Shown piece by piece: positions 21,321-35,835 of a stretch of DNA of 44,004 nt (position 1 is its first letter; each line of letters opens with the position of its first letter). Origin of the DNA: a virus. Its lineage: Duplodnaviria > Heunggongvirae > Uroviricota > Caudoviricetes. A program made the position numbers and the translations under genes. Under the pieces are notes generated by a model. The model ran no database searches, had not been told where the DNA came from, and was given only the letters and a program-made list of their open reading frames with translations. The stretch lies in the IMG/VR virus record IMGVR_UViG_2579778670_000004. The stretch is one strand, 5' to 3'.

Positions 21321-21350
21321 AGAAACGACAAAACCCCGCCGTGGCGAGGT
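21321..21350 (-). terminator. Intrinsic terminator between Q-like gene and holin (tR'-like)
   Basis: On the minus strand CCTCGC-CACG-GCGGGG hairpin (21334..21349) followed by a U-rich tract. Confidence 0.4.
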
Positions 21351-21417
21351 TCTTAGAAATTTGGCAACATACCAAATTAGCGTCAAATATGGCCTATTTT
21401 GTTCGTTTTTGCAAGCA

Positions 21418-22089
21418 TTATACGCAAACGTCGTCTAAATGGTTCTGATAATGATGCAAAGTTGCAAGAAGTGCCACTTCATCAAGTGCTCTCACCGCCT
21501 CTTTCATTCCTACCCAGTGCAGGGAGTATGTTTCGCACCAGGTGGAACGAGAAACCGACAGCATTCCTGCTAGGGTAGATCCGGCCATCTCCTTAAAATC
21601 CTCGCGTTTATTTGCTGCTGCGACCGCCTGCACGGACAACCACACCAACGAAAGCAGGCGCTTAACTACTTTTCTCTGAGTTGACGCGGGGATGTTTCCT
21701 TTATAGCGACTCCAGACAGCCTCACAAATAGCTGTTTGGTGTTTGAATGCCAGGTTACCACCGTAGCAATAACGCAACCACGCTTGCTGACTTGCATCCA
21801 GCGAGTTCACAGAACGCCGCCAGGATGAATCAGCAAATTCAAAATCACTCATCGGCGGCGCGGGGCGACGTCTGCTGAAACTTTCCAGAGCGTAAACTGG
21901 CGTAACCAGAGCATCAACGGTCCGGTCCTCCAGCTGCACACGGTGAATATGTTTGCGTGGGTATGCGTTTTTGTCTGCCGGTGGGTGCTCACACAATGCT
22001 TCCAGTTGCCCCTTAGAACCACCAGACAAATCCCGCAATGCAGCGCGCAGTTTTATGCGGGTATATTCCAATAAATACTCGTTACTCAT
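21418..22089 (-). CDS. Putative late-gene antiterminator (Q-like)
   Basis: 223-aa ORF immediately upstream of the terminator and lysis genes; assignment by position, not by a recognised motif. Confidence 0.35.
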   Translation of the reverse strand: MSNEYLLEYTRIKLRAALRDLSGGSKGQLEALCEHPPADKNAYPRKHIHRVQLEDRTVDALVTPVYALESFSRRRPAPPMSDFEFADSSWRRSVNSLDASQQAWLRYCYGGNLAFKHQTAICEAVWSRYKGNIPASTQRKVVKRLLSLVWLSVQAVAAANKREDFKEMAGSTLAGMLSVSRSTWCETYSLHWVGMKEAVRALDEVALLATLHHYQNHLDDVCV

Positions 22090-22382
22090 CAGATAAACTC
22101 CTCATCGCGCCAGATAGCCAGTGTTCTGAAAACTCCCTCAGCGTGCATCAACAACAATGAGTCGTGCTCGTAATCCGTTTTTGTACGTCCGTCGATGGCA
22201 TCGTGACACGCACTGCAGGCGATAGCGCCCTGCATATCGTGAGGTTTGATGGCTGTGCCGCACGTTCCGGCGAGACGATAATGAGCCAGTACGCTGGTTT
22301 CAGGATTGTGATTGCACACACCGGGGATACGCACAGTACAAGCGCGACTGCGTGCAGCTTTTCTCAGGTCGATTTTTTTCAT
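22089..22382 (-). CDS. YbcO-like DUF1364 protein (putative nuclease)
   Basis: 97-aa ORF; motifs RIPGVCN.NPETSVLAH and IACSACHD.ID closely match E. coli prophage YbcO as remembered. Confidence 0.65.
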   Translation of the reverse strand: MKKIDLRKAARSRACTVRIPGVCNHNPETSVLAHYRLAGTCGTAIKPHDMQGAIACSACHDAIDGRTKTDYEHDSLLLMHAEGVFRTLAIWRDEEFI

Positions 22383-22975
22383 GATGTGTAATCCAGCAGC
22401 TGCGCGGCGGCATTTTCAGCGGCCTCCTGAGAGGCAAATGTGCGGAACAAAATATAATTCCACAGCACATCTAAAACGGCTGAATACAGTTGACCGAACT
22501 CAAGATCGTCCATCGCTGCAAACGAGATTGAACGAGGTACGCGCATCAAACTGCCGTCTGGCATCTGATGAACGTCATAAAACCCAGCTTCCATAATCGC
22601 CCATGCGCGAAACGCCTCGAACGACTTCACCGCACTGATACTCCCCGCGCGCTTTTCCGACTCATCGAGAAGATACTGATCAGCCAGCTCTGCCATGACA
22701 TCACCGTGTCCACCGTAATACGCCAGTAACTTAACGTAGCCGTGAACCAGTTCGCGCTCCGCAGGAGAAATAGCCCCTCCGGACGGATGCCAGTAATCAA
22801 AGCCCAGGTTGAGAAGTGAGAAAAATTTACGATGAAACGCGGGATTACGCGCCTGTTTGAAATCTGCATACACAACAGCACCTGGTTTGACTCGTTCAGT
22901 CAACCAGCGTTGCGTGTCTGGTGTCGCGGGTATTAGCGAACCGCCGGATACCCTGATAAATGAATGCTGCGCCAT
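22379..22975 (-). CDS. Conserved lambdoid nin-region protein (possibly DUF1367 family)
   Basis: 198-aa ORF coupled by a 4-bp overlap to the YbcO-like gene. Confidence 0.35.
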   Translation of the reverse strand: MAQHSFIRVSGGSLIPATPDTQRWLTERVKPGAVVYADFKQARNPAFHRKFFSLLNLGFDYWHPSGGAISPAERELVHGYVKLLAYYGGHGDVMAELADQYLLDESEKRAGSISAVKSFEAFRAWAIMEAGFYDVHQMPDGSLMRVPRSISFAAMDDLEFGQLYSAVLDVLWNYILFRTFASQEAAENAAAQLLDYTS

Positions 22976-23052: not shown

Positions 23053-23232
23053 TTACGCGTCAGGGGGTGTAATAGTATATCCAGCTATTTCTGCCAACTC
23101 GAGAAACGCCATCAGGCTGGCAATCCGCTCATCATCGGTCAGAACACGCACACCAACGATGTGTCCGTCCTTACGCTTGATAACAGCCCGGCATGTTTCC
23201 GGTAGTTCGCCTATAGATTCTTGAATATTCAT
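23053..23232 (-). CDS. Small protein downstream of a LexA box (putative SOS-inducible factor)
   Basis: Track ORF 23053..23253 begins at TTG; the in-frame ATG at 23230..23232 is the more likely start (59 aa). A consensus LexA box lies about 25 bp upstream. Confidence 0.35.
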   Translation of the reverse strand: MNIQESIGELPETCRAVIKRKDGHIVGVRVLTDDERIASLMAFLELAEIAGYTITPPDA

Positions 23233-23254
23233 GTCTTCCCCCCAATGCCACAAC

Positions 23255-23270
23255 CTGTATATTTATACAG
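23255..23270. promoter_or_regulatory. LexA (SOS) box CTGTATATTTATACAG
   Basis: Perfect CTGT-N8-ACAG with AT-rich spacer, palindromic, in the promoter region of the 23053..23232 gene. Confidence 0.6.
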
Positions 23271-23383
23271 TATTTTATGGCATTTGTCATAACGCCAAAT
23301 ACAATGAGGGAATAATGAACAATTATATTCACGTCGTGAATTTTATTAAACGGTTTTATAGGGGATTAAACCGTTTATGGTCA

Positions 23384-24025
23384 TTATTTATCACTCCTGT
23401 AAATTGGAATTAACCATTTTCTAATCGTCGACGCTGCAGGTGGGTCAGAGTATTTCGCCACAAAAATACCGGATATGTATTGCACGCCACGCGATAATGG
23501 CGCTGTCGGGTTTTCAGTAAAAAAACGATCAGCCAGTTCAATGGCTTCGCTTTTTAATCTGTGCTGTGGTCGTCCTCCGCCCTTTGTTCCCAGGTATCGC
23601 GCCAGTTGTTTGAAACGGTAGGCGATGATTAACGGTCGCATCATCATATTGAAAAAATCGCGGGCATCGTTGTCAGCGCCTTGCGCTATCAACAGTGCAA
23701 AAAACAGATACGGGATTATGTACACTTCAGGAGATATACGAACCCGTTCACAAGTTGGTGGAGCCAACTCAATAAGTAAGTCAGCCAGCGGATTCCCCTT
23801 TTCTCCACGTTTGTAATAGCGATACAGCGGCCCGATATCAAGTTCACTCACGTCGATTTCAGGATGCCCGGCAACGACTGTACGTATCTCTTCTGCCAGA
23901 GCGTCAAATATTGCCCCGGTCCGTTCAAGATAGAGCCTCCGGGTCGAACCGCGATCATCCAACGCCCGTAACATATCTAACCGGCTAACGAAAGTTTCAG
24001 GCCAGTCCTCATAGAAGGTTTTCAT
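23384..24025 (-). CDS. Hypothetical cargo protein (unknown function)
   Basis: Start placed at the Met with GAGGT Shine-Dalgarno (MKTFYEDW...), 213 aa; no recognisable motif. Followed on its strand by a 9-bp inverted repeat AAACGGTTT/AAACCGTTT at about 23,342..23,370. Confidence 0.45.
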   Translation of the reverse strand: MKTFYEDWPETFVSRLDMLRALDDRGSTRRLYLERTGAIFDALAEEIRTVVAGHPEIDVSELDIGPLYRYYKRGEKGNPLADLLIELAPPTCERVRISPEVYIIPYLFFALLIAQGADNDARDFFNMMMRPLIIAYRFKQLARYLGTKGGGRPQHRLKSEAIELADRFFTENPTAPLSRGVQYISGIFVAKYSDPPAASTIRKWLIPIYRSDK

Positions 24026-24268
24026 AATTACCTCGAATAATAAAAACTGCACTATTTGCACAATTTATTATTCGTTTTCACGCCGCTGAGTTCTATAAAA
24101 AAGAAAAAACCTCCGAGGCAGGGTTTTGTTATGGCTCGTTAAATCATCATCCAACTTTTTAGACTGAACGGTGATACTTGCAAATATTTGAAAATATGGG
24201 CTGGAACCCTATCTTATGATGTGCCTGGTAATTTATATTGTTGGGTCTTTATATCATGAGGAATCACT

Positions 24269-24502
24269 ATGGGTACGTTAGGCAACCAGCCGTGCAGAAG
24301 TCGTTATGAGTTCGATGATTTTAATTTAGCCAATCGAGCTGCGGCTCTTACTAAGTTAGCAAAAGAAACTGGTGTATCGGTGGATACCTTAATCAAACTT
24401 GAAATTGCTATGCAACTGAATCGGCTCAACTCCATCCTTATCGAAAACGGTGACAAGATGGACGAGAATCTGGCAGGTATTGGCGAGATACTGCAGAAGT
24501 GA
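24269..24502 (+). CDS. Small protein, possible degenerate HTH regulator
   Basis: 77-aa ORF with GAGGA Shine-Dalgarno; segment LAKETGVSVDTLIKLE resembles an XRE-type helix-turn-helix; followed by hairpin CCCCTC-TTCT-GAGGGG. Confidence 0.4.
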   Translation: MGTLGNQPCRSRYEFDDFNLANRAAALTKLAKETGVSVDTLIKLEIAMQLNRLNSILIENGDKMDENLAGIGEILQK

Positions 24503-24809
24503 GAGTAGCCCCTCTTCTGAGGGGTTGCACATTTAAAATATTAAGGGCGGTCTTCTTCACGTACACAGTCACCTGGTCGAATCGTTCACGCATACTGAGT
24601 ACAAAAAATCTCAACGATAAGATCAGGTTAGACCTGTATTTTCCAGAAACATATAGACGCCTAAAAAAACACTAAACTCATGATTATCATGTATGTTTTT
24701 ACTGGAAACATTGAACCATCCACAATACAGCGTAAAAAGCAAGCAATTCACAAGATTTTAAAGTGATTTATCTGGAAGACTTTACTACTAACAGTTAATA
24801 TCGTACCAG

Positions 24810-24828
24810 AAGTGCAGAATTTGCACTT
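24810..24828. promoter_or_regulatory. 19-bp perfect palindrome AAGTGCAGAATTTGCACTT (candidate operator)
   Basis: Perfect inverted repeat about 75 bp upstream of the metallopeptidase start codon. Confidence 0.4.
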
Positions 24829-24900
24829 TTACAGGAATGTGGTACGGAACATGCTGTCTATATTTCAACCAATAATCGTAATGCAGTAACTGGAGGAGCT

Positions 24901-25389
24901 ATGGCTACCAACCCAAGAGAGCACGCCCGGCGAGTGCTGGACACGTTCTGGTGCGGGCGTGGTTTCCCTGTTGATCCAGCGAAAATTGCTCACGACATGG
25001 GATTAGATGTTTTTATTACCGATCTTCCTGGGAAAGTTTCTGGCGCACTGATTAAACAAAAAGATCAAGATCCAGCGATCTTTCTAAACAGTGATGACAA
25101 CAAAGTTCGTCAACGTTTTTCATGTGGGCATGAGTTGGGGCATTACATCGCCCGGCAAGCATCGCATAGCGATGAATATGAGTACGTTGATTTACGTGGC
25201 GAAACCGCAAGCGCCGGAACGCATCCTGATGAAATTTTTGCAAACAAGTTCGCAGCAGAACTTCTGATGCCGGTAGATGAGGTCAGAAAACTGCACGCTG
25301 ACGGTCAACCAAGTTATATAATGGCGCATTATTTTGGCGTATCTGACGATGCGATGACTTATCGTTTAAAGAACTTGAGGTTGGGGTAA
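24901..25389 (+). CDS. ImmA/IrrE-family zinc metallopeptidase (HExxH)
   Basis: 162-aa ORF with HELGHY motif and overall ImmA/IrrE (COG2856-type) pattern; GGAGGA Shine-Dalgarno. Confidence 0.7.
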   Translation: MATNPREHARRVLDTFWCGRGFPVDPAKIAHDMGLDVFITDLPGKVSGALIKQKDQDPAIFLNSDDNKVRQRFSCGHELGHYIARQASHSDEYEYVDLRGETASAGTHPDEIFANKFAAELLMPVDEVRKLHADGQPSYIMAHYFGVSDDAMTYRLKNLRLG

Positions 25390-25398
25390 CGCTTTAAA

Positions 25399-26004
25399 AT
25401 GCCATCGGATGACGATTTTAACAGCCGTTTCAAACAGGAAGTAGCACGCAGACTGAAGGATTCCCTCAACCTACACCGTCAGTTAGCAGAAGAGGTTGAG
25501 CCGGAGGACGATGAAACTCCGGTTCAGTCTCCTGACGAAGCTTCACCTCAGCCAAAGGTTTCGCACGCCCCCAAAAAAACGGCTGTCCGTATTCGCGGAA
25601 TAGCCAGAAAAAGAGCTGCCGAAGCTCGCAAAATGGCTGTAGCTGCGTCTAGCAAAAGAATTCCAACTGCTACACCCTCTCAACAAGTCACCCGTACTGA
25701 GAGTAAAATCTTGACCGAGTTCACATCTGTGAAACAGGTGAATTCACTTGATACCGAGCATGAGCGCAAACAACTCAACAACAAAGATTTTGAAGCAGAA
25801 ATCGCTCTAAAAAAACGATACGGGAAATGGTTCCTGATTATCCTTGCTTTCCAACTTCTGATAATGAATGGTGTATTTATTGCCGACGGCGCAGGTAAGC
25901 TGGAATTTGAGGATTTAACACTACAGTTGTACATGGGCGGTACTTTGACAGAGGTATTCGGCCTCGTGCTGGTCGTGACAAAATACCTTTTTAAACGCAA
26001 GTAA
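25399..26004 (+). CDS. Membrane protein with charged N-terminal region and two C-terminal transmembrane helices
   Basis: 201-aa ORF 9 bp after the peptidase stop; about 140 aa Lys/Arg/Glu-rich, then FLIILAFQLLIMNGVFIA and TLTEVFGLVLVVTKYLF helices. Confidence 0.55.
   Translation: MPSDDDFNSRFKQEVARRLKDSLNLHRQLAEEVEPEDDETPVQSPDEASPQPKVSHAPKKTAVRIRGIARKRAAEARKMAVAASSKRIPTATPSQQVTRTESKILTEFTSVKQVNSLDTEHERKQLNNKDFEAEIALKKRYGKWFLIILAFQLLIMNGVFIADGAGKLEFEDLTLQLYMGGTLTEVFGLVLVVTKYLFKRK
25933..26004 (+). repeat. Direct repeat copy 1 (3' end of membrane-protein gene)
   Basis: About 72 bp, roughly 90 percent identical to 29354..29425. Confidence 0.7.
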
Positions 26005-26248
26005 CTCTCTCGGTCCAACAGTCTTTCGAAGGCCCTGATCAAAGGGCCTTGATAAATTAGCAGTGCGTTGAAAACAGATAGTTATTCCCATCAGTTCCAA
26101 CGTAATACACATCAAAAAAATCACCATTCTTTTGCTCTAACGTCAACACCTACCCTTAAAAAAATAATTCTCCAAGAATGAGAAAGTTATTGTGTGTATT
26201 AGATAAGATATGAGCTGACACATCTATGGCGTGGAGCCAAATTTAATA

Positions 26249-26282
26249 TGACAGTCCGCTCTGTGCCATAAGCGGACTGTCA
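26249..26282. other. Perfect 11-bp inverted repeat (TGACAGTCCGC / GCGGACTGTCA) with 12-nt loop; possible terminator or protein-binding site
   Basis: Seen directly in sequence, in the intergenic space downstream of both convergent genes. Confidence 0.4.
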
Positions 26283-26466
26283 ATAAACAGATTCACTTGT
26301 AAATCTTGAAGCTATACATATTTACTTTCAATGATAAATAAAAGAACTATCCAAAAATCACTGAGAGCATATTTTAACTAACCCTCCGCTACTATTAACA
26401 TAAATTTCACCCAACCATAATTAAATTGATACATATAGCAACTTACCTTGATACGAATCATCTGGG

Positions 26467-27165
26467 TTATATTTTTCCATATTTTTTTCCGTCAAATCGA
26501 ATCATGCCAGGATCAAGAAAATTAATTAAATCGATTAACGCGTGCTGTATTCTGATTAGCCTTTCTTTATAAATTCCGATATCTCTTGTCATATTTATCA
26601 CTTCATTGTTTAAATCTAAAAAAAATGGCTCATTGATAAAGCAATTTTCCTTTGTGAAACTGCCGTAACCTATGCAATCAAATCCAGTATCTGTTGATAT
26701 CAGCATCTTTTCTGCAATAGCTCTCTGCTCTCCTATGAAAAACATAAAATACTGACCAAAGACGTCTGTTTGGATTAATGAGTTAATATTGTTCTGTAAT
26801 CTAATAAACTCCCTCATTTTTTTATTTTTTTCTAGGCTAAGGTATTGAATGTCTATGCGGGCAGCTTCTGTCCATGCAAAAAACTGGGAAAAAAGAAAAA
26901 CAGTATTGTTGATAACATAATCTTGTTGGCGCTTATTCCCATTATGATAAAACTCTTCAATGAACCCCAATTCTAATATATTATAAATACGGCTTTGTAA
27001 GTCTGAAGCTGAGCGAATTAACGGTTCAATATAGTACTGATGTTTTCTCCTTACATCCAGTGATTCATTGAGCTTGTTTATTCTATTCTGATTATAAGTA
27101 GATATAGCAATAGAGATTATAGCTATTGCACCACTAATAAAGCTTGAAATTAATGCCGTACCCAT
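26467..27165 (-). CDS. Hypothetical protein with N-terminal transmembrane anchor (unknown function, AT-rich cargo)
   Basis: 232-aa ORF; N-terminal hydrophobic helix (ALISSFISGAIAIISIAIS); low-GC codon usage unlike the phage backbone. Confidence 0.5.
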   Translation of the reverse strand: MGTALISSFISGAIAIISIAISTYNQNRINKLNESLDVRRKHQYYIEPLIRSASDLQSRIYNILELGFIEEFYHNGNKRQQDYVINNTVFLFSQFFAWTEAARIDIQYLSLEKNKKMREFIRLQNNINSLIQTDVFGQYFMFFIGEQRAIAEKMLISTDTGFDCIGYGSFTKENCFINEPFFLDLNNEVINMTRDIGIYKERLIRIQHALIDLINFLDPGMIRFDGKKYGKI

Positions 27166-28352
27166 CTAAAAGTCCTTTGATTCTTGCTTGGTTAACAAAA
27201 TGACATAATTTTATTTAATGCCATAACAACTTAACAATATATCATAATATGATTATTATGGTGTAGCTTGTCGCATCTACGCTCCATTACAAACAGATGT
27301 AAGATATAACCTATATGTTTTAGCCAGCAAATTCGAAAGCATTCAAAGTAGTCTCATCGAACTCTCGAAACCCTATGTCTTCGGGTATAAAATATTTAAA
27401 TCCATTTGCATAATATCGACTCATGTTTATTATATTCTCCCCATTCACCATTAAGATTTGACATTATTTTCAACAATCGGTTATTGCAAGATTGAAATAT
27501 ATTTTTACTTGACACAATATTCCATGTAGCCCAGCGATTCGACTTACCCCCAACTATACGGACAATCTAAATTAAATCGATGATTTTTTGATACATTCTC
27601 CTCTCTCCATTACTTTATGTTTTTGTTCCCCAAAAATACCTTGCTCTCTAAAAAATAATTGTTCTTTAAGTTCAAAATCGAGATCTACATGAGCGTTAGA
27701 TACAAAGCTAATATGTTGAAATGTCTTTCCCCCCCCATAACGGCATTGTTATCTAAACTATGTTACACAAATATAATATTACCCTTTCAACGTAATCCAA
27801 GAATAAGATTAATGCCATTATATATATCATAAATATGATATTTTGTATATTTTTATCATTTAGCCTTGATTGTACTAGGTGTACTCTCAACGAAGTAGGG
27901 AAAGTCTGTTCCTCGCTCACAGCTGCCCTTCAGTAAGCGAAAAAATGCCTACTCGGTGCCATATACAGCCATTGTTATTAACAGCAGGGAATAATTCAAA
28001 ACTGAAATTAAATATCTACCTTTTACAGTAGAAATAGTTCCTCCAGGACACTATCCATTGCCGGGCACAATCACTCGGGGTATAACGATATAAAATATGT
28101 TCATGATAGTGCAGGTTCGTATATTAAGTTCAGCAGCGAAAACATGCCTTACAGGTTTCCGGTTTTGGGAGCGTCGTTACAGGATCCTGCGCATACCGTT
28201 CCCATCTGTTGAATTAAAGGTTTCACAGCCTTTGCCGATATCACCTTTTACCTTACCTGTGATGCGTTCAGTGCTCAGCGTTGTTTACTGTAGCTCTCGG
28301 GACTGATTACAGACCGCGTCTTAAAAACCAATCCTTACTCTAAAGGGAATTC

Positions 28353-29276
28353 ATGAGATTAAAATACTCAGTACTCTTACTCGCCATTGCCCTTACAGGC
28401 TGTGATAACAAAAAAGATGAGATCGGTTGTTCTTCGGAAATAACCCAGTCAGCTCTCATGGATTTATTAAAAAAATCTGCTTATGAAGGACTCTCTGAAC
28501 AGGTCGATAAATACCCTGATGTCACTAATCAGACCAAACGAAGCACACTGGACAAGATCAAACTAGCCATCTCTGAGATCTCCACAACATCAAGTGACAC
28601 GGGCAGCACAATGAAAACTTGTGAAGGGACCGTGACGATGACTCTATCTGCGAACGAGTACGTCCAGCTTTCAGATGCTTACAGAAAGAATTTTAATCGT
28701 AATCTCGATAAGCAAATGGAAAGCCTGTTTTTGGAGAACAACGCAAACGCCTTTTCAAAACGTATCACCTACACCGTGCAGGCGACCGACGATCAGAAAA
28801 ACGTTTTTGTAAAAACCTCTACTGATAATCCGATATCAGTGGGCGCCGCTTTACTGACATCGCTTTCCATTATCACCCCGATCGTTGAGCAGCAGAAAAT
28901 CCAGCAGGCTAAGGATGCCCAACAGAGTCAAATTGAAGCGGAACAACAGGTGCAACTCAGGGCGCAAGAACAGGCTAAGTATGAGGCGGAGAAGCAAATA
29001 GAGAGACAGGCACAACTTCAGCCGCAAAAAGCTGACAACCTTGATCAGTCCCGAATGGCATTTGCGAATGCCGACTCTGATTTGAGTACCGTCTGGAGCA
29101 AGTTAACCCCGGCGAAGAAAAAAGATTTGCTGCCTTCTCAGCGTCAGTGGATCAAAACTAAGGATGCTATGTGCGGTAAAGTTTCAATGCAGGGAACAGA
29201 TGCTGAAGTCAAGAAAATGGTCGACTGCCAGACGCAAATGACCCTTTCAAGAATCGCTTTCCTCAGAAACCAATAA
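28353..29276 (+). CDS. Lipoprotein with C-terminal DUF1311 (LprI-like) domain
   Basis: 307-aa ORF; signal peptide plus lipobox LTGC; Gln/Glu-rich coiled-coil linker; C-terminal pattern QRQWIKTKDAMC...DCQTQMTLSRIAFL fits the DUF1311 signature as remembered. Confidence 0.55.
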   Translation: MRLKYSVLLLAIALTGCDNKKDEIGCSSEITQSALMDLLKKSAYEGLSEQVDKYPDVTNQTKRSTLDKIKLAISEISTTSSDTGSTMKTCEGTVTMTLSANEYVQLSDAYRKNFNRNLDKQMESLFLENNANAFSKRITYTVQATDDQKNVFVKTSTDNPISVGAALLTSLSIITPIVEQQKIQQAKDAQQSQIEAEQQVQLRAQEQAKYEAEKQIERQAQLQPQKADNLDQSRMAFANADSDLSTVWSKLTPAKKKDLLPSQRQWIKTKDAMCGKVSMQGTDAEVKKMVDCQTQMTLSRIAFLRNQ

Positions 29277-29353
29277 CTGAAGTCTCCTTCAAGCTGGCGC
29301 CAGGTGTTAACCTGGTGCCAGCTTAGTCATCAAGTGCATATGTAACTGTTTTA

Positions 29354-29450: not shown

Positions 29451-30269
29451 TCAAAATGCTGAATTAGCAACGGATATAGCCGACTTTTTCCCCATTACCA
29501 TCAATTTATCCAGTGTCATACTTCGCAGATTGTCGCTGTGGATCACCAGATACCCTGCCCGCTCAGCGATCTCTTTGAAAGCGTCAAAGGTCATCAGATG
29601 TTCGCCTTTGGCAACATGGCGCATCCCGGTCACTTTTCCATTTTTGATAGTGGTGATAAAAGAAAAATCTGGAATGGTTGGGTGATTTTCATCGAGTAGC
29701 AGGCAGTGGATGTATTCAATCGCCTCTAACATTTGCGTCTGTGACAGTTGTTCTATGTGAGAGACGGCGAAGCGTTGATGAATCATGGTGTAGGCATCGG
29801 GATACATCATGCCTTTCTTGCCGACCAGTATATTAACGGCATCACGCAAGGGAGTACGGTCATCGGTAGTTGTACTCCGCCTCTCTGGACGCTGGCTAAA
29901 ATAACAATCTTCCAGCTTTTCGAAAACTTCCCAGGCCTGTTCTGTTTCCAGCATTTTGGCATGGCGAGCTGCGCCGCGTTCTGTCCAGAGAATGAGGGAT
30001 CGGGTATGTTTAGCAACTGACTGACTATCTGTCAGTCTGTTTTTGAAGTCGCGTAATTCATTACCTTCCAGCTTAAAAAAATGCTTTCCTACGACAAATC
30101 TGGCGATGTTGCGCTTGAAGTTTTGCTGGATACCATTTACTTCCGTGCCATACAAACTGGCAAGCAATTCAGTAGTGATGACGGGAAGTTGGTTATGATG
30201 TAGCGGAGAAAGGGATTCCGCAGATATTTGGACTGTCATCGCAGTGGCCTCACTTAGTGTTTTTTTCAT
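29451..30269 (-). CDS. Phage antirepressor (ORF6N-type N-terminal domain, KilAC-type C-terminal domain)
   Basis: N-terminal pattern LPVITTELLASLYG...NFKRNIARFVVGKHFFKLEG matches antirepressor domains as remembered. Start moved to the ATG at 30267..30269; the track ORF begins at a TTG at 30287. Confidence 0.6.
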   Translation of the reverse strand: MKKTLSEATAMTVQISAESLSPLHHNQLPVITTELLASLYGTEVNGIQQNFKRNIARFVVGKHFFKLEGNELRDFKNRLTDSQSVAKHTRSLILWTERGAARHAKMLETEQAWEVFEKLEDCYFSQRPERRSTTTDDRTPLRDAVNILVGKKGMMYPDAYTMIHQRFAVSHIEQLSQTQMLEAIEYIHCLLLDENHPTIPDFSFITTIKNGKVTGMRHVAKGEHLMTFDAFKEIAERAGYLVIHSDNLRSMTLDKLMVMGKKSAISVANSAF

Positions 30270-30511: not shown

Positions 30512-30733
30512 TCAATCAACTTCAAACCTCCGGTGTTCACATTCCATACACTCAACGGGAACATCATCGCGATGCAAGTCCACATATCCGACCCGCTTAT
30601 ACAACTCAATAATGTCCGGTAACGTGACCAGATGTTTTTCCGGTTCCAACACCTCAGCCCGGGTTACTTTGTAATCTGAAATATAGAGCACTATCCGCCC
30701 GTTCCGTGGTAACTCCAGTTTATCGCCAAACAT
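30512..30733 (-). CDS. Hypothetical phage protein
   Basis: 73-aa ORF in the early-right operon. Confidence 0.35.
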   Translation of the reverse strand: MFGDKLELPRNGRIVLYISDYKVTRAEVLEPEKHLVTLPDIIELYKRVGYVDLHRDDVPVECMECEHRRFEVD

Positions 30734-35406: not shown

Positions 35407-35835
35407 TTGTATCCTTACGGTATGAACACAAAAACGAAAAACATGGCTTTTGCTAGCCGACTACAACGGATTCTAAAAGACTTAGGCTGGTCTCAATCTG
35501 AGTTAGCTCGCCATATTGGGGTTACGGCTCAATCAGTTCAGGCATGGTGTAATGGGGTAACTCCAAGAAAAGATAAATTAGACAAGCTAGCAAAAGTGAC
35601 CGGATACCCTGTTCATTTTTTCTTCATGAATGAAGGGGAATATTTGGATGAATCCACACTACACCCGGGTAATTACAATCAAGAACTAACCCCGCAAGAA
35701 CAGGCTCTACTGCAACTATTCAGAGGACTGCCTGAGAGCGAAAAAAATAAATTAATCAATGAGCTAAAAGAAAAAAGAGAGCACTTCGATCTACTGCTAA
35801 AAGAACTACTTGAAGCCAAAAACCAGACAAAATAG
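35407..35835 (+). CDS. CI-like prophage repressor (XRE-family HTH, no S24 peptidase domain)
   Basis: 142-aa ORF; N-terminal HTH (LGWSQSELARHIGVTAQSVQAW); C-terminal short coiled-coil segment only. Confidence 0.6.
   Translation: MYPYGMNTKTKNMAFASRLQRILKDLGWSQSELARHIGVTAQSVQAWCNGVTPRKDKLDKLAKVTGYPVHFFFMNEGEYLDESTLHPGNYNQELTPQEQALLQLFRGLPESEKNKLINELKEKREHFDLLLKELLEAKNQTK

What the first reader, a model, noticed from the sequence alone, without database searches (positions are those of the whole stretch)
23053..23270. Consensus LexA box driving a small ORF at the edge of the cargo island
CTGTATATTTATACAG is a near-ideal SOS box and lies about 25 bp upstream of a 59-aa ORF that leads into the nin/Q/lysis operon. 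The repressor has no autocleavage domain, so induction probably depends on an SOS-controlled factor. This small protein is a candidate, alongside the ORF6N/KilAC antirepressor. No LexA box was found upstream of that antirepressor.
Basis: partly seen in the sequence, partly recalled or inferred. Interest (0 to 1): 0.55.

Follow-up and report, generated by a model that had tools for sequence, protein, structure and literature searches.

The report
SOS-controlled small antirepressor of a prophage
A near-perfect LexA (DNA-damage) operator sits on the promoter of a 59-residue prophage gene that is a relative of the Salmonella Gifsy/Fels antirepressors, so this E. coli ST131 prophage very probably wakes up by the already known Gifsy-type route, not a new one.

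Summary
CTGTATATTTATACAG (23255..23270) is the only strong LexA box in the window: 24.7 bits, inside the range of my set of known E. coli sites, with 0 of 300 simulated windows reaching it. It overlaps the -10 hexamer of a promoter 22 nt upstream of a 59-aa ORF (23053..23232, minus strand).

The 59-aa protein is homologous to GfoA-type proteins (E 5e-10) and to FsoA (E 3e-8), the experimentally shown antirepressors of Gifsy-1/3 and Fels-1. It sits in the same slot, directly upstream of an irsA/DUF1367 orthologue (56% identical to Gifsy-2 IrsA) and of Q. The prophage repressor is a short DicA/GtgR-type protein with no S24 cleavage domain.

Across 80 irsA-anchored loci from Enterobacterales species, "LexA box - family ORF - irsA" without dinI is the commonest layout (25 loci).

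Corrections to the finding: the ORF6N protein has no detectable KilAC domain. Its C-terminus and an unannotated 73-aa ORF are two further copies of the same module. The family has no Pfam or NCBIfam model, and its PHROG is labelled function unknown.

Verdict: new member of a known kind, modest interest.

The parts
23253..23272 (-). LexA operator (SOS box), 20-mer TACTGTATAAATATACAGGT; 16-mer core at 23255..23270
   Evidence: Unique in the window. PWM 24.7 bits, 0/300 simulations reach it. CTGT/ACAG arms conserved in diverged alleles and in distant homologues.
23262..23290 (-). Putative sigma-70 promoter: -35 ATGACA (23290..23285), 17-nt spacer, -10 TATAAA (23267..23262) lying inside the LexA box. 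Inferred start about 23255, leader about 23 nt.
   Evidence: Read from the sequence. The -35 hexamer and the 17-nt spacing are invariant in L003-L008 while the spacer sequence varies. The consensus scanner missed it because the -10 ends in A. No experimental evidence.
23053..23232 (-). 59-aa GfoA/FsoA-family antirepressor gene (WP_001025459.1); SD G-run at 23243..23238
   Evidence: BLASTP to FsoA E 3e-8 and to the GfoA-type SEN34 gp55 E 5e-10. Family HMM E 3e-29. phrog_340. dN/dS 0.17-0.19. AF2 pLDDT 88.7.
22379..22975 (-). irsA homologue (DUF1367, NinB-like), next gene of the putative SOS operon
   Evidence: Pfam DUF1367 E 6e-78. 56% identical to Gifsy-2 IrsA/STM1020, E 5e-82. No terminator-like site between it and the 59-aa gene.
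22089..22382 (-). YbcO/DUF1364 putative nuclease
   Evidence: Pfam YbcO E 2.7e-40.
21418..22089 (-). Late-gene antiterminator Q, reachable by read-through from the LexA-controlled promoter
   Evidence: Pfam Phage_antiter_Q E 2.7e-38. No convincing terminator upstream of it; the first strong terminator-like hairpin is at 21353..21330, after Q.
35443..35835 (+). Prophage repressor, short DicA/GtgR type (130 aa), the presumed target of the antirepressor
   Evidence: HTH_3 only, no Peptidase_S24. NCBIfam DicA E 3e-20 over the full profile. 33% identical to Gifsy-2 GtgR, E 6e-23. 32% identical to K-12 DicA, E 1e-17.
30512..30733 (-). Unannotated 73-aa ORF: second copy of the antirepressor module, in the early-right operon, with no LexA box
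   Evidence: BLASTP to the 59-aa protein E 5e-5. Family HMM E 9e-11. Conserved as P0008 and P0011. Falls in an annotation gap in RefSeq.
29451..30239 (-). ORF6N-domain protein whose C-terminus (about 29508..29675) is the third copy of the module
   Evidence: Pfam ORF6N E 1e-21 and no ANT/KilAC hit. BLASTP to the 59-aa protein 37% over 38 aa, E 5e-7. Family HMM E 5e-11.
23347..23377 (-). AT-rich hairpin (UAAACGGUUU / AAACCGUUUA) after the stop of the upstream 225-aa ORF; possible weak insulator, not a canonical terminator
   Evidence: RNA fold of 23290..23400, z = -2.26. No U-tract; not reported by the terminator scan.

Best explanation
This is a Gifsy-type SOS induction module.

In the lysogen, host LexA binds the operator at 23253..23272. 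That operator covers the -10 hexamer of the promoter of a 59-aa gene and keeps it off. DNA damage activates RecA, LexA cleaves itself, and the promoter fires. The 59-aa protein, a member of the GfoA/GfhA/FsoA antirepressor family, is made. It binds the prophage's short DicA/GtgR-type repressor, which cannot self-cleave, and removes it from its operators. The early operons are then derepressed and lytic growth follows. The same transcript probably continues into irsA (DUF1367), ybcO and Q.

Shown here: the operator's quality and uniqueness, its conservation and recurrence upstream of distant homologues, family membership, gene position, and repressor type.

Inferred from the characterised relatives (Lemire 2011; Ragunathan 2023): LexA binding, SOS-dependent transcription, and physical inactivation of this particular repressor.
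For: (1) Operator:
- 24.7 bits, unique in the window, 0/300 simulations reach it.
- It overlaps a -35/17 nt/-10 promoter whose hexamers and spacing are invariant while the flanks vary.

(2) Family:
- The Fels-1 ORF STM0898.2n is FsoA: published primers le154 and le162 encode its two ends.
- It matches the 59-aa protein (41% over 39 aa, E 3e-8) and the family profile (hhalign 97.9%, E 5.8e-13).
- GfoA-type ORFs retrieved with the published gfoA primer (SEN34 gp55, mEp237 gp49) match at E 5e-10 and hhalign 96.4%.
- K-12 Rem, the shown antirepressor of DicA, is a distant member (hhalign 90.8%).

(3) Position: directly upstream of an irsA orthologue (56% identical, E 5e-82), between the replication genes and Q, as in Gifsy.

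(4) Repressor: HTH only, homologous over its full length to GtgR and DicA.

(5) Recurrence:
- In IMG/VR loci, 7 of 12 protein clusters (70% identity) have a box of >=16 bits within 300 nt upstream, against 8 such hits in 586 kb elsewhere.
- In 80 irsA-anchored loci from species-representative genomes, 25 show LexA > family ORF > irsA and 15 show LexA > dinI > family ORF > irsA.

(6) The ORF is under purifying selection (dN/dS 0.17-0.19) and is predicted to fold confidently (pLDDT 88.7).

(7) The module is kept in sister prophages whose neighbouring cargo island is entirely different.
Against: - No experiment on this phage: LexA binding, SOS-dependent transcription and the repressor-antirepressor interaction are all inferred.
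- Antirepressor specificity is not predictable from sequence. In Lemire 2011, FsoA has no apparent role in inducing its own phage and acts on a different phage's repressor, so family membership does not prove that the cognate target is this prophage's repressor.
- The prophage has two more copies of the module that could share or take that role.
- There is no dinI gene and no canonical terminator upstream of the box, unlike the Gifsy operons.
- My LexA PWM was built from sites recalled from memory.
Confidence: 0.78

Rival explanations
1. The main job of the LexA-controlled promoter is to transcribe irsA-ybcO-Q, so that SOS directly supplies the late-gene antiterminator (and recombination functions). 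On this reading the small protein is accessory.
For: No convincing terminator lies between the promoter and the end of Q; the first strong one follows Q. The box-irsA linkage is widespread.
Against: [quoted passage not shown] Two of the 80 irsA-anchored loci (L120, L122) do show LexA > dinI with no family or GftA-type ORF detected, but in nearly all boxed loci a family or GftA-type ORF lies between box and irsA. In L072 the boxed homologue is followed by Q with no irsA. Q without derepression of replication would give unproductive lysis. This reading may hold as an additional effect, not as the main one.
Confidence: 0.1
2. The 59-aa protein is an antirepressor, but it acts mainly in trans on repressors of other resident prophages (crosstalk). 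Self-induction of this prophage would depend on another factor, such as the 73-aa paralogue or the ORF6N fusion.
For: Precedent: FsoA does not contribute to Fels-1 induction but inactivates the Gifsy-2 repressor, and GfoA acts on both Gifsy-1 and Gifsy-3 repressors. The window has three copies of the module.
Against: The other two copies lie inside the repressor-controlled early operon and have no LexA box, so they cannot start induction. Only the 59-aa gene has an SOS input, and the repressor cannot sense RecA itself.
Confidence: 0.08
3. Induction goes through the CapP/ImmA-like metalloprotease of the cargo island (24901..25389), which would cleave the HTH repressor after DNA damage. The LexA-controlled gene would then do something else.
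For: The protease matches Peptidase_M78 and PADLOC capP at E 2.4e-25. From general knowledge, proteases of this kind cleave HTH repressors in ICEBs1 and in CBASS regulation.
Against: The protease is cargo. Sister prophages L005-L009 lack it yet keep the LexA box, the 59-aa gene and the irsA-Q block. It lies on the opposite strand, far from the immunity region.
Confidence: 0.03
4. The LexA-like sequence is a chance AT-rich palindrome with no regulatory role.
For: The bare CTGT-N8-ACAG pattern occurs in 34 of 100 shuffles.
Against: The full-site score is never reached in 300 simulations. The site is conserved in position relative to the promoter in diverged alleles. It recurs upstream of homologues in many genera.
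Confidence: 0.01

Closest known systems
Gifsy-1/Gifsy-3 GfoA/GfhA with repressors GfoR/GfhR (Salmonella; Lemire, Figueroa-Bossi & Bossi 2011, PMC3121763)
   Same: - Small antirepressor of the same sequence family (E 5e-10 to the GfoA-type SEN34 gp55; shared C-terminal GY-x-[IV]-TPP motif).
- A LexA box on the promoter.
- The gene lies directly upstream of irsA/DUF1367, between the replication genes and Q.
- The repressor is short, DicA-like and not cleaved.
   Different: - No dinI gene heads the operon.
- The protein is shorter (59 aa against about 77-82 aa) and lacks the N-terminal extension.
- No canonical terminator precedes the box.
- The host phage has a P2-like contractile tail and a lambda-like head module.
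- I compared with close GfoA homologues (primer match 97%), not with the ATCC14028 protein itself.
Fels-1 FsoA (same paper)
   Same: Clear homologue (41% over 39 aa, E 3e-8; hhalign 97.9%). Shown experimentally to inactivate GtgR, to which the window's repressor is 33% identical.
   Different: FsoA sits in the left early operon under the Fels-1 repressor, not under LexA, and is not needed for Fels-1 induction. In that respect it resembles the window's 73-aa ORF and ORF6N fusion more than the 59-aa gene.
Gifsy-2 GftA with repressor GtgR
   Same: Same slot (LexA box, then dinI, gftA, irsA) and the same repressor family (E 6e-23).
   Different: Sequence similarity is only marginal: no BLASTP hit, hhalign 11%, HMM E about 0.1. 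Two ORFs in other genera match both HMMs, and the GftA HMM ranks GfoA-type ORFs and FsoA next. It is probably a very distant relative.
Rem-DicA of the E. coli K-12 Qin prophage (Ragunathan et al. 2023, PMC10448788)
   Same: A DicA-type repressor relieved by a small protein encoded upstream of ydfU and Q. Rem's C-terminal 48 residues align to the module (hhalign 90.8%). The window's repressor is 32% identical to DicA.
   Different: No BLASTP similarity between Rem and the 59-aa protein. There is no LexA box upstream of rem, and the paper states that the inducing signal is not known.
Coliphage 186 Tum and N15 AntC (LexA-controlled antirepressors)
   Same: Same logic: LexA represses an antirepressor gene that lies outside the immunity region.
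   Different: No detectable sequence relationship to the family. Tum carries a DinI-like half, which the window lacks.

Membership tests
Gifsy-type LexA-controlled antirepressor module (GfoA/GfhA/FsoA family) | Small protein homologous to an experimentally shown antirepressor (GfoA, GfhA, FsoA) | tested here: met
   FsoA identified by published primers. BLASTP E 3e-8; hhalign 97.9%. GfoA-type SEN34 gp55: E 5e-10, hhalign 96.4%.
Gifsy-type LexA-controlled antirepressor module (GfoA/GfhA/FsoA family) | LexA operator overlapping the promoter of the antirepressor operon | tested here: met
   At sequence level only: 24.7-bit box covering the -10 hexamer, conserved. LexA binding itself is not testable here.
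Gifsy-type LexA-controlled antirepressor module (GfoA/GfhA/FsoA family) | Gene outside the immunity region, downstream of the replication genes and immediately upstream of irsA (DUF1367) | tested here: met
   Gene map. The irsA orthologue is 56% identical, E 5e-82.
Gifsy-type LexA-controlled antirepressor module (GfoA/GfhA/FsoA family) | Cognate repressor is short, DicA/GtgR-like and lacks the RecA-stimulated self-cleavage (S24) domain | tested here: met
   130 aa, HTH_3 only. DicA profile E 3e-20. GtgR E 6e-23. DicA E 1e-17.
Gifsy-type LexA-controlled antirepressor module (GfoA/GfhA/FsoA family) | dinI homologue as the first gene of the operon | tested here: not met
   The DinI HMM finds the Gifsy-2, SEN34 and mEp237 DinI proteins and 186 Tum, but nothing in the window (best E 2.9). 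This is not a universal feature: 25 of 80 irsA-anchored loci also lack dinI.
Gifsy-type LexA-controlled antirepressor module (GfoA/GfhA/FsoA family) | Rho-independent terminator just upstream of the LexA box | tested here: inconclusive
   Only an AT-rich hairpin without a U-tract at 23347..23377.
Gifsy-type LexA-controlled antirepressor module (GfoA/GfhA/FsoA family) | Protein binds the repressor and releases it from DNA; induction is blocked in lexA(Ind-) | not testable with these tools
   Needs pull-down or EMSA and genetics. Shown for GfoA/GftA and, genetically, for Rem.
186 Tum / N15 AntC | Sequence homology to the Tum antirepressor half or to AntC | tested here: not met
   The family HMM at maximum sensitivity finds no hit in 186 (26.5-30.6 kb) or in N15 (24.0-46.4 kb).
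P22 Ant / KilAC (Pfam ANT) antirepressors | ANT/KilAC or P22_AR_C domain | tested here: not met
   No Pfam hit for the 59-aa protein. The ORF6N protein shows only ORF6N.
DinI family | Homology to DinI | tested here: not met

The most novel reading that the evidence does not exclude
The roughly 45-residue GfoA/FsoA module (beta-hairpin plus helix plus a G-Y tail) may be a general, portable repressor-binding 'warhead'.

It occurs alone, and also as the C-terminal domain of proteins with Rha, Bro-N, KilA-N, ORF6N or P22_AR_N N-domains. It has no Pfam model and no solved structure.

This prophage deploys three copies with two different inputs. One is under LexA and would start induction. Two are in the early operon and would lock in the decision or induce co-resident prophages in trans. 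If so, many 'phage antirepressor-like' proteins of unknown mechanism would act through this module, and polylysogenic ST131 strains would have wired prophage crosstalk.
Probability: 0.3. Interest if true: 0.5.

Novelty: new member of a known kind. Interest (0 to 1): 0.3.

Why it matters
- It explains how a prophage present in about 8% of complete E. coli genomes (445 of 5426), including the pandemic ST131 strains EC958 and JJ1886, is likely induced by DNA-damaging antibiotics such as fluoroquinolones, even though its repressor cannot be cleaved.
- It gives a function to a protein family annotated as 'hypothetical' in RefSeq and 'unknown function' in PHROGs (phrog_340), with no Pfam or NCBIfam model.
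- It shows that the dinI-less layout 'LexA box - antirepressor - irsA' is the commonest form of the Gifsy-type module across Enterobacterales.
- It does not reveal a new mechanism.

Tried and rejected
- Pfam, NCBIfam and PADLOC scans of the 59-aa protein: no hit.
- BLASTP against GftA and against Rem: no alignment. Only profile methods link them, weakly for GftA.
- The word-indexed protein search gave only 7 close relatives. The GftA search gave only close relatives, so no deep GftA profile could be built.
- An exact search for the gfoA primer in IMG/VR found nothing. BLAST in the phage collection found SEN34 and mEp237.
- 186 Tum and the N15 ORFs: no relationship.
- Sequence search of the PDB and Foldseek against the PDB: nothing significant.
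- A canonical terminator upstream of the box: not found.
- The TTG start at 23253 (66 aa) was rejected. It would lie inside the operator, several alleles lack it, and RefSeq uses the ATG.
- The CapP/ImmA-like protease as the inducer was rejected because sister prophages lack it.
- Not attempted: a complex prediction of the 59-aa protein with the repressor. The structure tool takes single chains only.

Full report
WHAT THE WINDOW IS. The window is a prophage identical to one in E. coli ST131 strains (EC958, JJ1886). Matches to the 601-base query around the finding occur in 445 of 5426 complete E. coli genomes, 410 of them at >=99% identity. The prophage is integrated next to the tRNA-Leu/Cys/Gly cluster and pgsA-uvrC. 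On the minus strand the order is: cro-like (YdaS) gene, YdaT-like gene, replication genes including DnaB, several small ORFs, an ORF6N-domain gene, a mixed-orientation cargo island (about 24.2-29.3 kb), a 225-aa ORF, the 59-aa ORF, DUF1367, YbcO/DUF1364, Q, two holins, an endolysin, then lambda-like head genes and P2-like tail genes. The repressor gene is divergent from cro, at 35443..35835 on the plus strand.

THE OBSERVATION. CTGTATATTTATACAG is at 23255..23270 and is the only CTGT-N8-ACAG in the window. That bare pattern is weak evidence, because 34 of 100 shuffles contain one. The whole 20-mer (minus strand TACTGTATAAATATACAGGT) differs from the E. coli consensus TACTGTATATATATACAGTA at three positions. 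On a PWM built from 30 E. coli LexA sites that I recalled from the literature (Lewis 1994; Fernandez de Henestrosa 2000; recalled from memory, so approximate) it scores 24.7 bits. The training sites score 12.3-26.0. The next best site in the window scores 11.0, and none of 300 Markov-1 simulated windows reaches 24.7 (maximum 21.1).

Read on the minus strand, the box sits in a good promoter. The -35 hexamer ATGACA is at 23290..23285, followed by a 17-nt spacer, and the -10 hexamer TATAAA at 23267..23262 lies inside the box. Next comes a G-run SD at 23243..23238, and the ATG at 23232. The ORF (23053..23232) encodes 59 aa, and RefSeq calls it a hypothetical protein. The consensus scanner did not list this promoter because its rule requires T at position 6 of the -10.

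CONSERVATION OF THE BOX. In sister prophages whose 59-aa protein is only 73-76% identical (L003-L009), several features are invariant: the -35 hexamer, the 17-nt spacing and the CTGT/ACAG arms. The spacer and leader around them differ. The two substitutions inside the box are LexA-compatible, and one of them moves towards consensus. The ORF has dN/dS of 0.17-0.19 against these alleles, so it is a real gene.

WHAT THE PROTEIN IS. Pfam, NCBIfam and PADLOC give nothing. PHROGs places it in phrog_340, function unknown. An exhaustive profile search found 125 clusters (at 50% identity) with E<1e-3. Most are standalone proteins of 55-100 aa, and some are C-terminal modules of proteins of 170-290 aa. 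In those larger proteins Pfam identifies the N-terminal domains as Rha, Bro-N, P22_AR_N, ORF6N or KilA-N, the domains typical of proteins annotated as phage antirepressors.

The decisive link came from a tblastn hit in Salmonella phage Fels-1. The hit ORF, STM0898.2n, is 78 aa. Its N-terminus (MNSQQMM) and C-terminus (EAGIRFEEISNVG) are exactly what primers le154 and le162 of Lemire et al. 2011 encode; those primers were used to build PBAD-fsoA and fsoA::3xFLAG. The ORF is therefore FsoA, an antirepressor shown to inactivate the Gifsy-2 repressor. FsoA matches the 59-aa protein (41% over 39 aa, E 3e-8) and the family profile (hhalign 97.9%, E 5.8e-13).

The published gfoA::3xFLAG primer encodes ...RRLGYRVTPPSDI, which resembles the window's ...EIAGYTITPPDA. 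With that primer I retrieved GfoA-type genes from Salmonella phage SEN34 and coliphage mEp237 (97% match), both in the order dinI - gfoA-like - irsA. The SEN34 protein matches the 59-aa protein at E 5e-10 (33% over 51 aa) and the profile at 96.4%.

GftA of Gifsy-2 is only marginally similar. It is linked by two ORFs in other genera that match both HMMs, and by the paper's own statement that FsoA shares residues with both GftA and GfoA. Rem of the K-12 Qin prophage was shown in 2023 to relieve DicA repression, and was found through GfoA/FsoA homology. It is a distant member (hhalign 90.8%). 186 Tum and the N15 ORFs are not detectably related.

POSITION AND PARTNER. The gene just downstream (22379..22975) is DUF1367 and is 56% identical to Gifsy-2 IrsA (E 5e-82). 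In Gifsy the LexA-controlled operon is dinI - antirepressor - irsA, located between the replication genes and ninG/Q. The window has the same slot.

The repressor is 130 aa with only an HTH_3 domain. It matches the DicA profile over its whole length, Gifsy-2 GtgR (33%, E 6e-23) and K-12 DicA (32%, E 1e-17). These are the repressors shown not to be cleaved and to be inactivated by small antirepressors.

HOW GENERAL THE LAYOUT IS. Two surveys were run:
- Eighty IMG/VR loci encode homologues 29-100% identical. Seven of 12 protein clusters (70% identity) carry a box of >=16 bits within 300 nt upstream, against 8 such hits in 586 kb elsewhere. Representatives of the divergent boxed groups lie directly upstream of DUF1367 (L028, L074), or between DnaB and a Q-like gene (L072).
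- Anchoring on irsA in species-representative genomes gave 80 loci from about 30 genera of Enterobacterales. Of these, 25 show LexA > family ORF > irsA, which is the window's layout. Fifteen show LexA > dinI > family ORF > irsA. About 10 have a GftA-type ORF in the slot, 4 have a family ORF without a box, and 23 have none of these.

The window has no DinI homologue, and the positive controls were found. The window is therefore the commonest variant of a widespread module.

MECHANISM. The shown and inferred steps are separated in the Best explanation section. Two further points apply:
- No convincing terminator lies between the promoter and the end of Q, so SOS may also feed Q expression directly. 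This is inferred and untested.
- Unlike Gifsy, there is no canonical terminator upstream of the box. There is only an AT-rich hairpin (23347..23377) and a conserved palindrome ATTCAC-N3-GTGAAT (23341..23327) inside a second promoter-like site.

The 'ORF6N/KilAC' protein has no ANT/KilAC hit. Its C-terminus is another copy of the module (E 5e-7). An unannotated 73-aa ORF (30512..30733) is a third copy, and the HMM finds exactly these three in the window. The two extra copies lie in the repressor-controlled early operon without a LexA box, as FsoA does in Fels-1.

STRUCTURE. AlphaFold2 with a 19-sequence alignment gives a confident model (pLDDT 88.7). It has a short helix at residues 3-8, a beta-hairpin at 16-30, a helix at 40-49 and an extended tail. 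Nothing in the PDB matches by sequence or by fold.

RIVALS. Four were considered:
- A CapP/ImmA-like protease in the cargo island could in principle cleave an HTH repressor. It is absent from sister prophages that keep the LexA module.
- Chance occurrence of the box is excluded.
- A role mainly in driving Q remains possible as a secondary effect.
- A role only in trans on other prophages also remains possible as a secondary effect.

VERDICT. It is a new member of the known Gifsy-type antirepressor system, not a new mechanism. Its value lies mainly in annotation, because the family has no curated model, and in applied work on antibiotic-triggered induction of an ST131 prophage. Interest 0.3.

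Noticed in passing
window 24901..26004 (+): The cargo island carries an ImmA/IrrE metalloprotease that matches PADLOC capP (E 2.4e-25) and RmrA models. It is followed by a 201-aa protein with a hydrophobic C-terminus (phrog_5346, no Pfam). This may be a DNA-damage-responsive defence or toxin module.
   Followed up: partly
window about 24200..29300, compared with L003-L009: The island between the early genes and the LexA-antirepressor-irsA-Q block is a variable cargo hot-spot. Sister prophages carry SMEK_N plus Peptidase_M78, or GmrSD_N genes plus an IS element, in its place, while the flanks stay conserved.
   Followed up: partly
window 30512..30733 (-): A 73-aa ORF not annotated in RefSeq. 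It is a second copy of the GfoA/FsoA module with a C-terminal Cys-rich tail (CMECEH), and is conserved as P0008 and P0011.
   Followed up: partly
window 29451..30239 (-), C-terminal part about 29508..29675: The ORF6N protein ends in the same module and has no KilAC/ANT domain. The module is also fused to Rha, Bro-N, KilA-N and P22_AR_N domains in other phages, and no Pfam model covers it.
   Followed up: yes
window 23322..23349 and 23327..23341 (-): A second promoter-like site (TTAATA-16-TATAAT, 10 of 12 matches) lies about 60 nt upstream of the LexA-controlled promoter. Its spacer holds a palindrome ATTCAC-N3-GTGAAT whose arms are conserved while the 3-nt centre varies among alleles. This may be an operator for an unknown regulator.
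   Followed up: no
L175 (E. coli K-12 Qin) 4652..4903 (-): rem, the shown antirepressor of DicA, is a distant member of the same family and lies upstream of ydfU and the Q gene. It has no LexA box, which fits the published statement that its inducing signal is not known.
   Followed up: partly
window 26467..27165 (-): A 232-aa protein with an N-terminal hydrophobic segment gives a weak PADLOC hit to RTasTM, a DRT-associated TM protein (E 1.8e-5). No reverse transcriptase was seen nearby.
   Followed up: no
window 21330..21353 (-): A strong terminator-like hairpin (10 bp, 5 of them GC pairs) lies just after Q and before or within the start of the first holin ORF, where a lambda-style tR' target of Q would be expected.
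   Followed up: no
L113, L114, L116 (Yersinia), L157 (Erwinia): Family ORFs directly upstream of irsA but with no LexA box of >=14 bits. This is either a different regulatory input or a diverged operator.
   Followed up: no
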